A DNA stretch of 64,000 nucleotides, from contig CAZJQL010000003.1 in assembly GCA_964548665.1 (NCBI GenBank), positions 17,194 to 81,193 of the forward strand, in the 5' to 3' direction. Under the pieces are notes generated by a model. It did no database searches and had not been told where the DNA came from. It was given only the letters and a program-made list of their open reading frames with translations. Positions 37,971 to 39,784 of this stretch are shown here, in pieces. The stretch is from an uncultured Methanosarcinales archaeon (lineage in GTDB: Archaea > Nanobdellota > Nanobdellia > Woesearchaeales > 21-14-0-10-32-9). How positions within the stretch are numbered: position 1 is the stretch's first letter; every line of letters starts with the position of its first letter. The position numbers and the translations under genes are program-made.

Positions 37971-38564
37971 TTATTTATTTTTAATGAACTCTGACAATTT
38001 GCCATAAACAACCTTTGGATCGTAATTTATTTCAGCAAGCATACTAGAAACAACTTTTTCATCTTCCCTAAAATTTCTAAAAAAATCAAATAAAGGAACT
38101 GCAAACTTTCTATCAAACCAAATAGGTTCCCTTTTTGACTGTACTTCATTCGCCCTATTCAGGAATACCTCGTAATTATTATCAAATACAATTCTATAAT
38201 CTGGTTTTATTAATTCGTTATTTTTATTCAAATCAAATATTTCTTTAGAAAGATATGAGTATGTATCTATACCAGAAAAAGAAGAATAAGCATAAGAAAA
38301 AGCCATAACTGATAAATAATCTCTTTCTACAAAAACAAGTTCATTTAATTTTTTCGCATTCGCCATTTTTTCAATAGCTACATCGAGAAACCATCTTTCG
38401 TTTTTTCTTAATTCTGTGAAATTGGTGCCTAAGTCAGGAGATTCTTCATATATTTTTTTTAATTCGACATCTGTAGGAAAAAACACATACTTTTTTTGTG
38501 AAAGTATGAACTTCTTAAAATGTGTTTTGCCGGCGGCTCTGCTTCCTTCCAAACTTATTATCAT
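37971..38564 (-). CDS. P-loop nucleoside/nucleotide-kinase-like protein (paralogue of 42273-42905)
   Basis: Walker A in IISLEGSRAAGKT, followed by ERWFLD and RDYLSVMAFSYAY segments shared with the other kinase-like gene. The ATG overlaps the stop of the aaRS-like gene (TAATG). Confidence 0.55.
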   Translation of the reverse strand: MIISLEGSRAAGKTHFKKFILSQKKYVFFPTDVELKKIYEESPDLGTNFTELRKNERWFLDVAIEKMANAKKLNELVFVERDYLSVMAFSYAYSSFSGIDTYSYLSKEIFDLNKNNELIKPDYRIVFDNNYEVFLNRANEVQSKREPIWFDRKFAVPLFDFFRNFREDEKVVSSMLAEINYDPKVVYGKLSEFIKNK

Positions 38565-39784
38565 TACCTATACCTCACACTATTAAAAACAACATCAGCA
38601 ATACTTTCTTTTGATAATAAAGCCATAGTAAGACGATCTATGCCAACACCCATTCCGGAATTTGGAATAATTCCCTCTAAAACTGAACATAAATATGGTT
38701 TAAATTCATCGACGTTTAACATCGCATCTTTCATATTAAAAAATATTTTATCAGGATCTGTTTCTTTAACCGAGCCATCAGCAAGTTGACCCAAATCCAA
38801 GTATCTTAATTGTGCACTTTCATTTACAGAATTTCCTGATTTTAGCTGAAATTTCTTTTTATAAAAATCATTATGCCCTTTACTAGGAGTATTTTTTATC
38901 CAAAATAATTTTCCAAAATTATTTGATAGTAAATCTTTATATTTATTAGATATATGAGAAACACCTTCACCAAAACTTATATCTTCTTTTTTATTAGATA
39001 ATAACTTTATCAATTCTTCGTATGTAATTACGTTTATATTACTCAAATCTTTAAATAAATCAAGGGCATCAATTCCAACGTTAATTGCAGCAGACTCTAT
39101 AACTTTGTTAGATCTCATAATAATATCATCAATATTTTCATAAGCTACACTAAAATCTAACATCTGTATTTCAGATATATGTGTGGTTGATTTTGATTTT
39201 GTTCCTCTAAAAACTTCTCCAAATTCAAATATTCTTTCTAAACCAGAAGAATGGATGATTTGATGGTATAACAAGTTACTTATAGTCAACCACCTTTGAT
39301 CTTTAAAATATTTGACTGAAAAAACATCTTCATAGTTATCAATCATAGTAGACACTATTTTTGGACTTTTTATTTCAATAAAGTTATTTTGATAAAAATA
39401 GTTTCTTATTGTCTCCAATAGTTTTGATTTATTTATTAAATTATCTCTCAGATTCTTGTCTATAAACTTTTCTTTATAATAAATATTTTCTTTATCATTT
39501 CTATTTATTACACAAATCTCAGATGCATTAATTTCATAACCCTTTATCCCACATTTAACAGCATCATTTTTTGTAATAATCCCCTTAATATGTATTACTT
39601 GATTTTTTTTAATATCTTCATTAATTTCTGTTTTGTCAAAAACAGCTTGAATTTCAAATAAGCCTTTATCTAATATCAAAAAATTAAGTTTTTTTCCTAA
39701 AGATTTAATTCCAACTACTTTTGCATACATATCTATTTCTTTTCCTACACAATCCTCGTTATTATTTATTAGTTCATTTATCAT
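38564..39784 (-). CDS. Class IIb aminoacyl-tRNA synthetase paralogue (AspRS/AsnRS-like, degenerate active-site motifs)
   Basis: It aligns by eye along its length to the canonical AspRS at 43014. The OB anticodon-binding domain matches ([36 protein letters not shown] vs NQEIRVKGRIEDKRNLGGLGFLTVRDLKGTFQVI). Motif 1 region: [11 protein letters not shown] vs FTQIFTSKIVS. Motif 2: [35 protein letters not shown] vs [35 protein letters not shown]. Motif 3: [14 protein letters not shown] vs GGLAIGLERMTAKIL. Confidence 0.75.
   Translation of the reverse strand: [406 protein letters not shown]

What the first reader, a model, noticed from the sequence alone, without database searches (positions are those of the whole stretch)
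38564..39784. AspRS/AsnRS-like paralogue that keeps the tRNA-anticodon OB fold and ATP arginines but has a rewritten amino-acid pocket
The paralogue can be aligned directly against the canonical AspRS 3 kb away (43014-44312). The OB domain and overall class IIb architecture are retained. The motif 2 and motif 3 arginines are kept (FRGT..., GIDRL). The AspRS-specific residues have changed: QSPQLYKQ becomes [19 protein letters not shown] becomes [11 protein letters not shown], LDYEM becomes LDFSV, and the C-terminal FPRD is lost. It probably still binds ATP and perhaps a tRNA, but it is unlikely to activate aspartate in the canonical way. aaRS paralogues embedded in operons have repeatedly turned out to have new functions; established examples are EpmA/PoxA, GluQRS, AsnA, HisZ, PylS and the aa:carrier-protein ligases. 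No AsnRS or GatCAB is visible in this window, so a role as a highly divergent AsnRS must also be excluded.
Basis: partly seen in the sequence, partly recalled or inferred. Interest (0 to 1): 0.75.

Follow-up and report, generated by a model that had tools for sequence, protein, structure and literature searches.

The report
AspRS-derived paralogue in a nucleoside-type gene cluster
An archaeon carries a rewired copy of its aspartate-charging enzyme, belonging to an undescribed family found beside radical-SAM enzymes, aspartyl-bond-cutting hydrolases and a normal AspRS, so it probably transfers aspartate onto a small molecule rather than serving protein synthesis.

Summary
ORF 38564-39784(-) encodes an intact 406-aa class IIb synthetase-like protein. 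It has an OB fold and both motif 2 and motif 3 arginines, but it lacks QSPQ/K195, E233 and both Mg2+-binding acidic residues (D354, E361). It scores far below the AspRS and AsnRS cut-offs. It falls in a monophyletic, unnamed family (97/100 NJ bootstrap) separate from AspRS, AsnRS and LysRS, so it is not a divergent AsnRS.

Eleven loci carrying family members, from archaea and bacteria, show a recurring neighbourhood. Radical-SAM enzymes lie nearby in 8 loci. A second class IIb synthetase, checked as canonical AspRS in 4 of 5 loci, lies nearby. So does an S51, S66 or HIT hydrolase, the three hydrolase families reported to destroy the aspartyl-nucleotide warhead of microcin C. SAM- and nucleotide-handling enzymes also recur.

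In the window the gene sits in a tightly packed operon: kinase, GT9-like GT-B protein, rSAM, paralogue, kinase, S51, Nudix. The same module occurs elsewhere without the paralogue, and once beside a SerRS and an S66 peptidase.

The best reading (about 0.4) follows the AcmD/AcmF/AcmE logic of ascamycin: an Asp-tRNA-dependent aspartyl transferase acting on a nucleoside-type acceptor. The main rival (0.22) is an ATP-dependent ligase. No biochemistry exists, and the rest of the genome could not be examined.

The parts
38564..39784 (-). AspRS-derived paralogue, 406 aa (whole ORF)
   Evidence: ORF. Pfam and NCBIfam scores. It is a singleton at 90% identity among 5.8 billion clusters. It belongs to a monophyletic family with 97/100 bootstrap support.
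39500..39745 (-). N-terminal OB-fold (anticodon-binding-type) domain, residues about 14-95. It keeps K27, F35 and Q46.
   Evidence: Pfam tRNA_anti-codon scores 24.3 bits over residues 22-90. AF2 predicts strands at 16-92. F35 and Q46 are invariant in all AspRS, AsnRS and LysRS sequences compared, and are kept in 25 and 21 of 31 family members. Their role in binding U35 comes from my knowledge of class IIb-tRNA complexes.
38588..39463 (-). Class II catalytic-type core, residues 108-399. Kept: motif 1 P141, motif 2 R193, H202, E205, D210, motif 3 R384. Rewritten: I168, N170, L171, H174, T195, S212, Q325, Q333, K340.
   Evidence: HMMER alignment to 3nel/1b8a. Site table in T. kodakarensis numbering.
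43014..44312 (+). Canonical archaeal-type AspRS (432 aa), transcribed divergently from the operon. Proposed supplier of Asp-tRNA and/or the target or resistance copy.
   Evidence: NF003483 scores 524.6 bits against a cut-off of 353. QSPQLYKQ, E233, D354, E361 and R368 are all present. A second class IIb synthetase lies near the paralogue in 5 of 11 loci.
42906..43013 (.). 108-bp divergent intergenic region between the operon's first gene and AspRS, containing two TTTATAAA elements
   Evidence: Sequence read. Reading these elements as archaeal TATA boxes is my inference.
42273..42905 (-). P-loop deoxynucleoside-kinase-like protein (210 aa), first gene of the operon
   Evidence: GxxxxGKS P-loop is visible. 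The L105 counterpart (27% identical) carries a weak Pfam dNK hit.
40678..42276 (-). 532-aa GT-B fold protein resembling GT9 (ADP-heptose) glycosyltransferases
   Evidence: No Pfam, NCBIfam or PDB sequence hit. AF2 mean pLDDT 92.4. Best Foldseek matches are 3tov and WaaC 2gt1/2h1h. Named homologues come mostly from Nanoarchaeota MAGs.
39774..40700 (-). Radical-SAM enzyme (308 aa) with CxxxCxxC and a Cys-rich C-terminal region of SPASM/twitch type. Its ORF overlaps the paralogue's start by 11 nt.
   Evidence: Pfam Radical_SAM scores 58.7 bits. The best NCBIfam hits (PapB, PTO1314, SkfB, MoaA) are all far below cut-off. PDB sequence hits are SkfB and BlsE. Counterparts are 39-42% identical in L105 and L107. 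A radical-SAM protein of the same length (308 aa) stands one gene upstream of the closest paralogue homologue P0124.
37971..38564 (-). Second P-loop kinase-like protein (197 aa), overlapping the paralogue's stop codon by 1 nt
   Evidence: Weak AAA_28/AAA_33 and dTMP-kinase hits. 35% identical to an L105 gene. An AAA-type kinase-like protein of 186 aa lies immediately upstream of P0124.
37277..37939 (-). S51 peptidase (PepE/MccG/cyanophycinase family, 220 aa)
   Evidence: Pfam Peptidase_S51 scores 86.4 bits. PepE scores 64 bits, below its cut-off. The sequence shows GGSAGA...KPHY...IPEKSG. An S51 gene is adjacent to the paralogue in L003 (42% identical to this one) and L019. S51 MccG cleaves isoaspartyl-nucleotides (PMC9239234).
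36864..37280 (-). Nudix hydrolase (138 aa), last gene of the tightly packed unit
   Evidence: Pfam NUDIX scores 62 bits. 47% identical to the Nudix gene of the L105 module.
36451..36855 (+). HIT-family hydrolase (HinT-like) on the opposite strand inside the cluster. Membership in the cluster is uncertain.
   Evidence: Pfam HIT scores 71.8 bits. HIHTHIF motif. A HIT gene also lies in the L001 cluster. HIT MccH hydrolyses processed microcin C (PMC9239234 introduction; PMC7157772 listed).
34908..36293 (-). QueC-like PP-loop ATPase (461 aa). Possibly a second transcription unit of the cluster.
   Evidence: Pfam QueC scores 27.1 bits over residues 98-281. SGGKDSS motif.
33884..34948 (-). PLP-dependent beta-replacement enzyme (CysK/CBS/SbnA-like, 354 aa), overlapping the QueC-like gene by 41 nt
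   Evidence: Pfam PALP scores 194 bits. NCBIfam hits to CBS, CysK and SbnA are all below cut-off. Overlap.

Best explanation
The paralogue is a non-translational descendant of archaeal AspRS. I propose that it is an aminoacyl-tRNA-dependent aspartyl transferase that tailors a small molecule made by its own gene cluster.

Proposed steps (all inferred, none shown):
1. The neighbouring canonical AspRS makes Asp-tRNA(Asp).
2. The paralogue holds that tRNA through its retained OB fold.
3. It places the aspartyl-A76 end in its remodelled active site. An AMP-like acceptor sits where ATP/AMP would bind, against the retained motif 2 and motif 3 arginines.
4. It transfers the aspartyl group to the acceptor without any adenylation step of its own.
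5. The acceptor would be a nucleoside- or nucleotide-type compound built by the co-transcribed kinases, GT9-like protein, radical-SAM enzyme and Nudix hydrolase.
6. The product would be an aspartyl-nucleoside, that is, a mimic of aspartyl-adenylate.
7. The S51 peptidase, and perhaps the HIT protein, would cleave it again, either for self-protection or for activation.

Shown by analysis: the anatomy, the family, the residue pattern and the gene neighbourhoods.

This is the logic of AcmD (canonical AlaRS), AcmF (AlaRS-like transferase) and AcmE (hydrolase) in ascamycin biosynthesis, arrived at independently from a different synthetase lineage.
For: (1) Loss of activation residues. Neither Mg2+-binding acidic residue survives in canonical form: D354 is absent in 31/31 family members (Q in 25, E in 5, R in 1), and E361 is absent in 31/31 (D in 3). 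K195 and E233 are also gone in 31/31. All four residues are invariant in the 20 archaeal-type AspRS compared.

(2) Retention of tRNA-type features. The OB-fold triad R/K27-F35-Q46 is kept in the window protein and in most members. The four members that lack the motif 2 arginine (P0128, P0131, P0134, P0143) all keep the triad.

(3) Linkage to AspRS. A second class IIb synthetase lies within a few kb in 5 of 11 loci, in varied orientations: the window, the P0124 contig, L005, L019 and L022. I checked it as canonical AspRS in the window, L005 and L019 by motifs, and in L022 by 47% identity to the L005 AspRS.

(4) Asp-specific hydrolases next door. S51 occurs in the window, L003 and L019, and S66 in L005. 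S51 MccG, S66 MccF and HIT MccH all destroy the aspartyl-nucleotide warhead of microcin C (PMC9239234).

(5) Tight operon. Overlaps or gaps of -4, -23, -11, -1, +31 and -4 nt link the paralogue to kinase-like proteins, a GT9-like GT-B protein, a radical-SAM enzyme and a Nudix hydrolase.

(6) The module is independent of the paralogue. The same module occurs without the paralogue in L105, and beside a canonical-looking SerRS and an S66 peptidase in L107. The synthetase-type gene and its hydrolase therefore behave as an exchangeable tailoring unit.

(7) Precedent. AcmF keeps its tRNA-recognition domain, lacks most ATP- and alanine-activation residues, and transfers alanine from Ala-tRNA made by the cluster's AcmD onto a nucleoside sulfamate. 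AcmE was hypothesised to reverse this step (PMC12945691).
Against: There is no biochemical or expression evidence. The mechanism rests on neighbourhood and analogy.

- The amino-acid pocket is rewritten too (Q192 to L, K195 to H, E233 to S, R368 to K). An enzyme that handles an aspartyl group might be expected to keep more of it.
- The motif 2 and motif 3 arginines and E226 are kept, which is equally compatible with an ATP-using ligase.
- Class II enzymes can do without the Mg2+ ligand: HisRS uses an arginine instead (my own knowledge).
- AspRS was not seen in 6 of 11 loci. Several of those contigs are short, but L021 has 10 kb on each side and L020 has a HisRS instead.
- The acceptor is unknown, and the cluster contents vary widely between family branches: PqqD/RiPP-like in L020 and L103, DCD plus methyltransferases in L001, L021 and L022.
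- I sampled only 11 loci, and many sit on short contigs.
- I could not tell whether the window's AspRS is the genome's only copy.
Confidence: 0.4

Rival explanations
1. It is an ATP-dependent amide or ester ligase, in the manner of AsnA or MccB. The paralogue would itself activate aspartate, or an aspartate-like non-proteinogenic amino acid such as a beta-substituted alanine made by the PLP enzyme. It would then couple that amino acid to a nucleoside, nucleotide or peptide acceptor, independently of tRNA. This would replace the ThiF-type MccB in a microcin-C-like pathway.
For: - Motif 2 R193, H202, E205, D210 and motif 3 R384 are kept.
- His174 and Lys340 could still bind a carboxylate (inference).
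- The neighbourhoods contain counterparts of most mcc functions but no ThiF-like enzyme: methyltransferase-fold proteins (L001, L005, L020, L021, L022, L103), decarboxylases (L005 AdoMetDC, L018 Orn/DAP decarboxylase), S66, S51 and HIT hydrolases, and a MATE exporter in L022.
- L005 also carries an AsnA-like catalytic core.
Against: - The canonical Mg2+ ligands D354 and E361 are lost family-wide, and the motif 2 glutamate is lost in the window protein.
- 4 of 31 members lack the motif 2 arginine and 7 of 31 lack the motif 3 arginine.
- Retention of the OB-fold anticodon triad and the recurrent AspRS neighbour would have no explanation, except AspRS as a resistance copy.
Confidence: 0.22
2. It is a non-catalytic binding protein. 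It could act as a decoy or sponge for an AspRS-directed aminoacyl-nucleotide toxin, as a tRNA(Asp)-binding or protecting factor, or as a regulatory partner that forms a heterodimer with AspRS.
For: - Catalytic acidic residues are lost, and catalytic arginines are lost patchily across the family.
- The dimerisation motif 1 proline P141 is nearly invariant in the family.
- The paralogue is linked to AspRS and to enzymes that detoxify aspartyl-nucleotides.
Against: - New, family-specific active-site residues are strongly conserved: H174 in 28/31, N170 in 23/31, W295 invariant, and E at position 367 in 24/31. This argues for a working pocket.
- The aspartate pocket that a decoy would need is rewritten.
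- The gene sits inside biosynthetic-type operons, with overlapping reading frames.
Confidence: 0.1
3. It is a genuine synthetase with altered specificity. It would charge a tRNA carrying U35 (Asp, Asn, His or Lys type) with a non-canonical amino acid made by the cluster. A downstream tRNA-dependent enzyme would then use that product.
For: The architecture is full length, with the OB triad and both motif arginines kept. A PLP beta-replacement enzyme lies at the end of the cluster. L020 pairs a family member with HisRS.
Against: The canonical Mg2+ ligands and E216 are lost. No recognisable aa-tRNA-using transferase (Fem/GNAT, CDPS or LanB-like) was found among the operon genes scanned. No dedicated tRNA gene lies nearby; the window's tRNAs are Thr, Ala and Met only.
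Confidence: 0.08
4. It is a highly divergent AsnRS, or a second AspRS, that serves translation.
For: No AsnRS or GatCAB gene occurs in the 64-kb window. Foldseek also matches AsnRS structures.
Against: - AsnRS models score 108-110 bits against cut-offs of 343-414, and AspRS models 142-158 bits against 353-368.
- The protein lies in a separate clade with 97/100 support. The grouping family plus AsnRS is recovered in only 23/100 replicates.
- It lacks Q192, E216, E233, D354 and E361, which are invariant in the 10 AsnRS sequences compared.
- Family members occur inside clusters in organisms that also carry a canonical AspRS.
Confidence: 0.02

Closest known systems
AcmF (AlaRS-like Ala-tRNA-dependent transferase) with AcmD (canonical AlaRS) and AcmE (hydrolase), from ascamycin biosynthesis in Streptomyces (PMC12945691)
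   Same: - A synthetase-derived protein keeps its tRNA-recognition part but has lost residues needed for amino-acid activation.
- It is encoded next to a canonical synthetase of the same amino-acid type.
- It is also next to a hydrolase that can undo the aminoacylation, and to genes for a nucleoside-type compound.
   Different: - The lineage differs: class IIb AspRS with an OB fold, rather than AlaRS. This is analogy, not homology.
- The host is an archaeon, probably DPANN.
- The acceptor chemistry is unknown, and no sulfamate genes were recognised.
- The hydrolase is an S51 peptidase rather than an alpha/beta hydrolase.
- No biochemistry exists for this family.
Microcin C-type (mcc) clusters and their immunity enzymes MccF (S66), MccG (S51) and MccH (HIT) (PMC9239234, PMC7157772)
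   Same: - Family neighbourhoods contain S51, S66 or HIT hydrolases.
- They also contain methyltransferase-fold proteins and decarboxylases, which recall MccD and MccE, and an exporter.
- AspRS is implicated as partner or target.
   Different: - No ThiF-like MccB was found among the window's ORFs of 300 aa or more.
- No precursor peptide was identified.
- Radical-SAM enzymes and a synthetase paralogue are not part of known mcc clusters.
- The window's S51 has a Ser-His-Glu triad, as in PepE. The characterised MccG from Nocardia vaccinii has Ser-His-Asp.
Asparagine synthetase A (AsnA / archaeal AS-AR), the known AspRS-derived paralogue
   Same: It derives from archaeal-type AspRS, has a class II catalytic core, and has a non-translational role.
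   Different: AsnA lacks the OB fold and keeps the aspartate- and ATP-activating residues. The window protein scores 71 bits against a cut-off of 309 and has the opposite pattern: OB fold kept, activation residues lost.
Canonical archaeal-type AspRS (T. kodakarensis 1b8a/3nel; the window's own gene at 43014-44312)
   Same: Overall fold, domain order, motif 1 proline, motif 2 and motif 3 arginines, and the OB-fold F35 and Q46.
   Different: Only 25% identity. QSPQ/K195, E216, E233, D354, E361 and the C-terminal FPRD are missing. The equivalog model scores 158 bits against a cut-off of 353.
EpmA/PoxA and GluQRS (synthetase paralogues that aminoacylate a protein or a modified tRNA base)
   Same: They are synthetase paralogues that put an amino acid on a non-canonical acceptor.
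   Different: Both lack the anticodon-binding domain and keep full ATP-dependent activation chemistry. The EpmA model scores 61.9 bits against a cut-off of 286.9.

Membership tests
Canonical AspRS (archaeal or non-discriminating type) | Reaches the NCBIfam equivalog cut-off (NF003483 / TIGR00458) | tested here: not met
   158.0 bits against 353, and 141.8 bits against 368.4. The neighbouring AspRS scores 524.6.
Canonical AspRS (archaeal or non-discriminating type) | Aspartate-binding residues QSPQ, K195, E233 and R368, and Mg2+ ligands D354 and E361 | tested here: not met
   The paralogue has ISNL, H174, S212, K340, Q325 and Q333 at these sites. All are invariant in the 20 archaeal-type AspRS compared.
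Canonical AspRS (archaeal or non-discriminating type) | Class IIb architecture: OB fold with the F/Q anticodon residues, motif 1 proline, motif 2 and motif 3 arginines | tested here: met
AsnRS | Reaches the NCBIfam asnS cut-off | tested here: not met
   109.6 bits against 414, and 107.6 bits against 342.6.
AsnRS | Branches within the AsnRS clade | tested here: not met
   NJ tree of 71 sequences over 402 columns. The family is monophyletic in 97/100 replicates. Family plus AsnRS is recovered in 23/100.
AsnRS | Is the only route to Asn-tRNA in the genome (no other asnS, no gatCAB) | not testable with these tools
   Only the 64-kb window is available, and neither gene is in it. The genome was not found in the GTDB representative set.
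AsnA / AS-AR | Catalytic core only (no OB fold), reaching the model cut-off | tested here: not met
   The OB fold is present. NF005054 scores 71 bits against 309.
EpmA/PoxA | LysRS-like core without an anticodon domain, reaching the genX cut-off | tested here: not met
   61.9 bits against 286.9.
AcmF-type aa-tRNA-dependent synthetase-like transferases (a functional class) | Synthetase-derived fold that keeps the tRNA-recognition domain | tested here: met
   OB fold with K27, F35 and Q46.
AcmF-type aa-tRNA-dependent synthetase-like transferases (a functional class) | Loss of residues needed for amino-acid activation | tested here: met
   D354, E361, E216, K195 and E233 are replaced.
AcmF-type aa-tRNA-dependent synthetase-like transferases (a functional class) | A canonical synthetase for the same amino acid is encoded in or next to the cluster | tested here: met
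   AspRS lies 3.2 kb away across a divergent promoter region. A class IIb synthetase lies near the paralogue in 5 of 11 loci.
AcmF-type aa-tRNA-dependent synthetase-like transferases (a functional class) | Sequence homology to AcmF (AlaRS lineage) | tested here: not met
   All sequence and structure matches are to class IIb D/N/K enzymes. The resemblance is one of logic only.
AcmF-type aa-tRNA-dependent synthetase-like transferases (a functional class) | Transfer from aa-tRNA to a small-molecule acceptor demonstrated | not testable with these tools
   This needs biochemistry.
Microcin C-like (mcc) biosynthetic cluster | ThiF-like nucleotidyltransferase MccB plus a short precursor peptide ending in Asn | tested here: not met
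   No ThiF-type hit in any scanned ORF. Every window ORF of 300 aa or more was scanned against Pfam, and three of them had no hit at all. I did not search systematically for a precursor peptide.
Microcin C-like (mcc) biosynthetic cluster | An immunity hydrolase of the S66, S51 or HIT type | tested here: inconclusive
   S51 and HIT homologues are present, but their substrate is unknown. The S51 triad is Ser-His-Glu, as in PepE. E. coli PepE did not protect against microcin C in PMC9239234.
Prokaryotic viperin plus kinase system | Radical-SAM enzyme reaching the viperin model cut-off | tested here: not met
   NF038283 scores 36.5 bits against 180. PADLOC pVip scores 45.8 bits and VakA 16 bits. 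The Cys-rich C-terminal region points instead to the SPASM/twitch type.

The most novel reading that the evidence does not exclude
A small-genome (probably DPANN) archaeon, together with a scattering of bacteria, makes aspartyl-nucleoside 'adenylate-mimic' compounds aimed at AspRS. They do so with an AspRS-derived, tRNA-dependent transferase that evolved independently of the AlaRS-like AcmF. This would be the first archaeal pathway for a synthetase-directed toxin. It would also reveal a new, widespread enzyme family whose synthetase-plus-hydrolase unit can be swapped (an AspRS-type unit here, a SerRS-associated one in L107) onto a common kinase/GT9-like/radical-SAM nucleoside module.
Probability: 0.25. 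Interest if true: 0.85.

Novelty: new variant of a known kind. Interest (0 to 1): 0.72.

Why it matters
Synthetase paralogues have repeatedly revealed new chemistry. For AspRS, a 2022 review lists only AsnA/AS-AR and the fungal fusion protein ErdS (PMC9437257).

This work defines a third, full-length AspRS-derived family with a conserved new pocket. About 40 of the best 150 cluster representatives, drawn from a library of 1.84 billion, belong to it. No name, Pfam model or NCBIfam model exists for it.

Its neighbourhoods give a concrete, testable hypothesis: transfer of aspartate onto a nucleoside-type compound, linked to AspRS and to hydrolases of the three families reported to act on aspartyl-nucleotide antibiotics.

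If the hypothesis holds, it would:
- extend tRNA-dependent tailoring of natural products to class IIb enzymes and to archaea;
- offer a handle for genome mining of AspRS inhibitors;
- provide a natural scaffold for making aminoacyl-nucleoside analogues.

If the ligase or decoy readings hold instead, the family would still be a new kind of synthetase repurposing.

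Tried and rejected
- **Word-indexed search with the paralogue.** It found only the protein itself plus canonical D/N/K synthetases at 27% identity or less. The family became visible only in the exhaustive HMMER search.
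- **Profile search with the 34-member family alignment.** Canonical enzymes swamped the result, and only P0229 was recovered.
- **The look-up of encoding contigs for the paralogue itself.** Not on record.
- **Genome scan with the single protein.** No relatives, so the source genome is not in the GTDB representative set.
- **Metagenome scan with A4.** It returned 11 loci, all canonical synthetases and none a family member; 10 carry QSPQ, and L016 does not but looks AsnRS-like.
- **Genome scan with A5.** It returned 80 loci, of which only L021 and L022 carry family members.
- **Plasmid tblastn with two family members.** Only canonical aspS and asnS were hit.
- **Defence-system reading.** There are no PADLOC hits for the paralogue. 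The pVip and VakA hits for the radical-SAM enzyme and a kinase are weak and far below family level, so I rejected a viperin system.
- **Queuosine or archaeosine tRNA modification, in the manner of GluQRS.** I considered it because of the QueC-like gene here and Vut_1 in L019. I set it aside because the QueC match is marginal (27 bits) and these genes do not recur across the family.
- **Literature.** I found no description of this family.
- **PDB sequence searches** with the 532-aa, 461-aa and L107 374-aa proteins gave nothing usable.
- **Promoter, terminator and Rfam scans** were uninformative for this archaeal locus.

Full report
**1. The observation**

The ORF at 38564-39784 on the minus strand is intact. 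It starts with ATG and encodes 406 aa.
- Pfam finds the class II D/K/N core at 132.9 bits over residues 108-399. It finds the OB-fold anticodon domain at 24.3 bits over residues 22-90, just under the cut-off of 27.
- BLASTP against the gene at 43014-44312(+) gives 25% identity over 413 columns, E = 8e-25.
- That neighbour is a bona fide archaeal-type AspRS: NF003483 scores 524.6 bits against a cut-off of 353. The paralogue reaches only 158 bits on the same model, 108-110 bits on the AsnRS models (cut-offs 343-414), 71 bits on AsnA and 62 bits on EpmA.
The one slip is that the canonical gene reads YRAEE, not FRAEE.
- An AlphaFold2 model built on 34 sequences has mean pLDDT 81.6. Its best structural matches are archaeal AspRS 1b8a/3nel and AsnRS 1x54.

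**2. It belongs to a family**

At 90% identity the protein is a singleton among 5.8 billion clusters. It comes from one NCBI contig of 85,532 bp.

An exhaustive HMMER search of 1.84 billion representatives found relatives closer than any canonical synthetase: P0124 (36% identity, E = 1.7e-60), P0125 (37%), P0126 (34%) and others. The window's own AspRS ranks far below them at 77.7 bits.

About 40 of the best 150 representatives share a signature:
- L[ST]ISN[ML][LI]YH in place of AQSPQLYK;
- F[FV]W[VI]xxxP;
- QLW[YH];
- AGGERE.

In a neighbour-joining tree of 71 sequences over 402 columns, the 31 family members form one clade in 97 of 100 bootstrap replicates. That clade is separate from archaeal-type AspRS, AsnRS, LysRS and bacterial AspRS. 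The window protein groups with P0124 and P0125 in 88 of 100 replicates.

No Pfam, NCBIfam or literature name exists for the family. A 2022 review lists only AsnA/AS-AR and ErdS as AspRS paralogues (PMC9437257).

**3. What is kept and what is lost**

The table uses T. kodakarensis numbering.

| Status | Site | Family (31 members) | Window protein |
|---|---|---|---|
| Kept | Motif 2 R214 | 27/31 | R193 |
| Kept | Motif 3 R412 | 24/31 | R384 |
| Kept | E226 | 30/31 | E205 |
| Kept | D231 | D in 26, E in 5 | D210 |
| Kept | S190 | 24/31 | S169 |
| Kept | R368 | 21/31 | K340 |
| Kept | Motif 1 proline | nearly invariant | P141 |
| Kept | OB fold R27 | R in 19, K in 4 | K27 |
| Kept | OB fold F35 | 25/31 | F35 |
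| Kept | OB fold Q46 | 21/31 | Q46 |
| Rewritten | Q189 | I/L/V | I168 |
| Rewritten | P191 | N in 23 | N170 |
| Rewritten | Q192 | M/I/L | L171 |
| Rewritten | K195 | H in 28, Q in 3 | H174 |
| Rewritten | E233 | S/G/T/A | S212 |
| Rewritten | D354 | Q in 25, E in 5 | Q325 |
| Rewritten | E361 | Y/Q/N, D in only 3 | Q333 |

From my knowledge of class IIb-tRNA complexes, the OB-fold residues F35 and Q46 are the ones that read the shared anticodon base U35.

All the rewritten residues are invariant in the 20 archaeal-type AspRS compared. Q192, E233, D354 and E361 are also invariant in the 10 AsnRS compared. D354 and E361 are the acidic ligands of the catalytic Mg2+ ions in class IIb enzymes (established knowledge).

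The window protein additionally has T195 in place of the motif 2 glutamate. Four members lack the motif 2 arginine, yet all four keep the OB triad.

The pattern is 'tRNA-type features kept, activation chemistry dismantled, new pocket conserved'.

**4. The local operon**

Seven genes run on the minus strand with overlaps or gaps of -4, -23, -11, -1, +31 and -4 nt.

| Order | Coordinates | Product |
|---|---|---|
| 1 | 42273-42905 | P-loop dNK-like kinase |
| 2 | 40678-42276 | 532-aa protein with no sequence-family hit. AF2 pLDDT 92.4. GT-B fold, closest to GT9 heptosyltransferases 3tov and WaaC. |
| 3 | 39774-40700 | Radical-SAM enzyme with a Cys-rich C-terminal region |
| 4 | 38564-39784 | The paralogue |
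| 5 | 37971-38564 | Second P-loop kinase-like protein |
| 6 | 37277-37939 | S51 peptidase, 86 bits |
| 7 | 36864-37280 | Nudix hydrolase |

A HIT hydrolase lies on the other strand at 36451-36855. Beyond it come a QueC-like PP-loop ATPase and a CysK/SbnA-like PLP enzyme.

AspRS is transcribed divergently from the first gene, across 108 bp that carry two TTTATAAA elements.

The window is archaeal: it has an archaeal CCA-adding enzyme, deoxyhypusine synthase, Nre and ribosomal protein S3Ae. Named homologues of the 532-aa protein come mostly from Nanoarchaeota MAGs, so a DPANN host is likely. The window holds ArgRS, GluRS, AspRS, class II LysRS and ProRS, but no AsnRS, GatA or GatB.

**5. Neighbourhoods of relatives**

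| Locus (family member) | Neighbouring genes |
|---|---|
| P0124 contig | rSAM (308 aa), AAA-type kinase-like protein (186 aa), paralogue, convergent class IIb synthetase (427 aa; no DNA available to check it) |
| L003 (P0125) | S51 gene 42% identical to the window's, directly upstream of the paralogue |
| L005 (P0126) | paralogue, methyltransferase, AdoMet decarboxylase, AsnA-like core, S66 (MccF-type) peptidase, canonical AspRS |
| L018 (P0127) | Orn/DAP-type decarboxylase |
| L019 (P0130) | canonical AspRS immediately upstream of the paralogue; then S51, Vut_1, rSAM-SPASM, SDR, an unknown protein, split transketolase |
| L020 / L103 (P0132 / P0133) | rSAM-SPASM, PqqD, B12-rSAM, methyltransferase, M19 dipeptidase, aldo-keto reductase; HisRS in L020 |
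| L101 (P0128) | B12-rSAM, rSAM, paralogue, HAD hydrolase |
| L001 / L021 / L022 (bacterial branch) | two DCD-like proteins and two methyltransferases. L021 and L022 also have a B12-type rSAM. L001 also has a HIT gene. L022 also has an AspRS (47% identical to the L005 AspRS), a MATE exporter and an M20 peptidase. |

Over the 11 loci:
- radical-SAM genes are nearby in 8;
- a second class IIb synthetase is nearby in 5, checked as canonical AspRS in 4;
- an S51, S66 or HIT hydrolase is nearby in 5.

This is a small, non-random sample, and several contigs are short.

**6. The module exists without the paralogue**

- L105 carries Nudix (47% identical), kinase, 544-aa GT9-like protein (36%), rSAM (39%) and the second kinase (35%), but no synthetase-like gene.
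- L107 carries the GT9-like protein (39%) and rSAM (42%) next to an S66 peptidase, a dNK-like kinase, a canonical-looking SerRS and an unassigned 374-aa protein.

The synthetase-type gene and its Asp-type hydrolase thus look like an add-on tailoring unit on a conserved nucleoside- or nucleotide-type module.

**7. Links to known biology**

S51 MccG, S66 MccF and HIT MccH are the three hydrolase families reported to destroy the isoaspartyl-nucleotide warhead of microcin C, an AspRS inhibitor (PMC9239234; PMC7157772, listed).

In ascamycin biosynthesis, the cluster encodes three relevant proteins (PMC12945691):
- AcmD, a canonical AlaRS;
- AcmF, an AlaRS-like protein that keeps its tRNA-recognition domain but lacks most ATP- and alanine-activation residues. 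It transfers alanine from Ala-tRNA onto a nucleoside sulfamate;
- AcmE, a hydrolase that was hypothesised to remove the alanine again.

The window reproduces this three-part logic with AspRS, the paralogue and S51. Nucleoside sulfamates are also reported to hijack the reaction of Plasmodium AspRS (PMC12262901, title and abstract).

**8. Interpretation**

Best explanation (about 0.4): an Asp-tRNA-dependent aspartyl transferase acting on a nucleoside-type acceptor made by the operon, with AspRS as supplier and S51/HIT as the reversing or protective hydrolases.

Shown by analysis: the anatomy, the residue pattern, the phylogeny and the neighbourhoods. Inferred: tRNA dependence, the aspartyl donor, the nature of the acceptor and the biological role.

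Rivals:
- an ATP-dependent AsnA/MccB-like ligase (0.22);
- a non-catalytic decoy or regulator (0.10);
- a true synthetase for a non-canonical amino acid (0.08);
- a divergent AsnRS or AspRS (0.02).

The remainder is left for functions I did not foresee. Family branches with PqqD point to peptide substrates in some members.

**9. Verdict**

This is a genuine, well-delimited finding and an undescribed family of AspRS-derived proteins. It is a new variant of a known kind, namely synthetase paralogues recruited to specialised metabolism. Interest is 0.72.

Noticed in passing
window 60576-62147 (+) and 62137-63651 (+): This archaeal window encodes a class II (bacterial-type) LysRS (NF001756, 707 bits), directly followed by ProRS. 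Together with ArgRS (23333-24802), GluRS (31611-33284) and AspRS, that makes five synthetase genes plus the paralogue in 64 kb. From my own knowledge, most archaea use class I LysRS.
   Followed up: partly
L107 2719-8126 (JGI 3300009484, Ga0127411_1001340): The same GT9-like/radical-SAM module sits beside an S66 (MccF-type) peptidase, a dNK-like kinase, a canonical-looking SerRS and a 374-aa protein with no family hit. That protein's sequence ...SDIGFGFERILWALN... resembles a class II motif 3. It may be a seryl counterpart of the system studied here.
   Followed up: partly
L020 6402-12538 and L103 1593-7233: The basal family members P0132 and P0133 lie in a RiPP-like set: rSAM-SPASM, PqqD, B12-rSAM, methyltransferase, M19 dipeptidase and aldo-keto reductase. 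In L020 the adjacent synthetase is HisRS, not AspRS. I did not look for a precursor peptide.
   Followed up: no
L001 1434-2518, L021 1884-2896, L022 11293-12362: In the bacterial branch, the paralogue always travels with two tandem dCTP-deaminase-like (DCD) genes and two methyltransferases. This hints at a pyrimidine nucleotide being modified there.
   Followed up: partly
L005 4189-7593 (GCA_030673485.1, DAOVJD010000014.1): One operon encodes an S66 peptidase, an AsnA-like catalytic core (373 aa, no OB fold, canonical E and R kept), AdoMet decarboxylase and a methyltransferase. It lies between a family paralogue and a canonical AspRS, so three class IIb-type genes sit within 6.5 kb.
   Followed up: partly
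window 7940-9058 (-) and 9155-9952 (+): A fusion of an AAA-type kinase domain with a dCMP/cytidine deaminase domain (ComEB-like; a weak 84-bit hit to 'anti-phage dCTP deaminase', cut-off 400) lies next to a thymidylate-kinase-like gene.
   Followed up: no
window 44382-45999 (-): A second Nudix hydrolase (149 aa) and an HD plus HD-associated-region protein (377 aa; only a marginal 14-bit PADLOC dGTPase hit) lie immediately downstream of AspRS. These are further nucleotide-handling genes flanking the cluster.
   Followed up: no
window 38903-39031 (-), residues 252-294 of the paralogue: A Pfam DUF6327 hit (27.2 bits, above its cut-off of 24.1) falls inside the insertion region of the catalytic core. 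It is probably a compositional match in a Lys/Asn-rich helical stretch.
   Followed up: no
window 38564-39784 compared with its neighbours: The paralogue has the lowest G+C of the cluster genes: 0.256, with GC3 of 0.165. Its neighbours range from 0.277 to 0.323, and the window as a whole is 0.313.
   Followed up: no
window 893-2752 (+) and 58399-59376 (+): Two sizeable ORFs (619 aa and 325 aa) have no Pfam hit at all.
   Followed up: no
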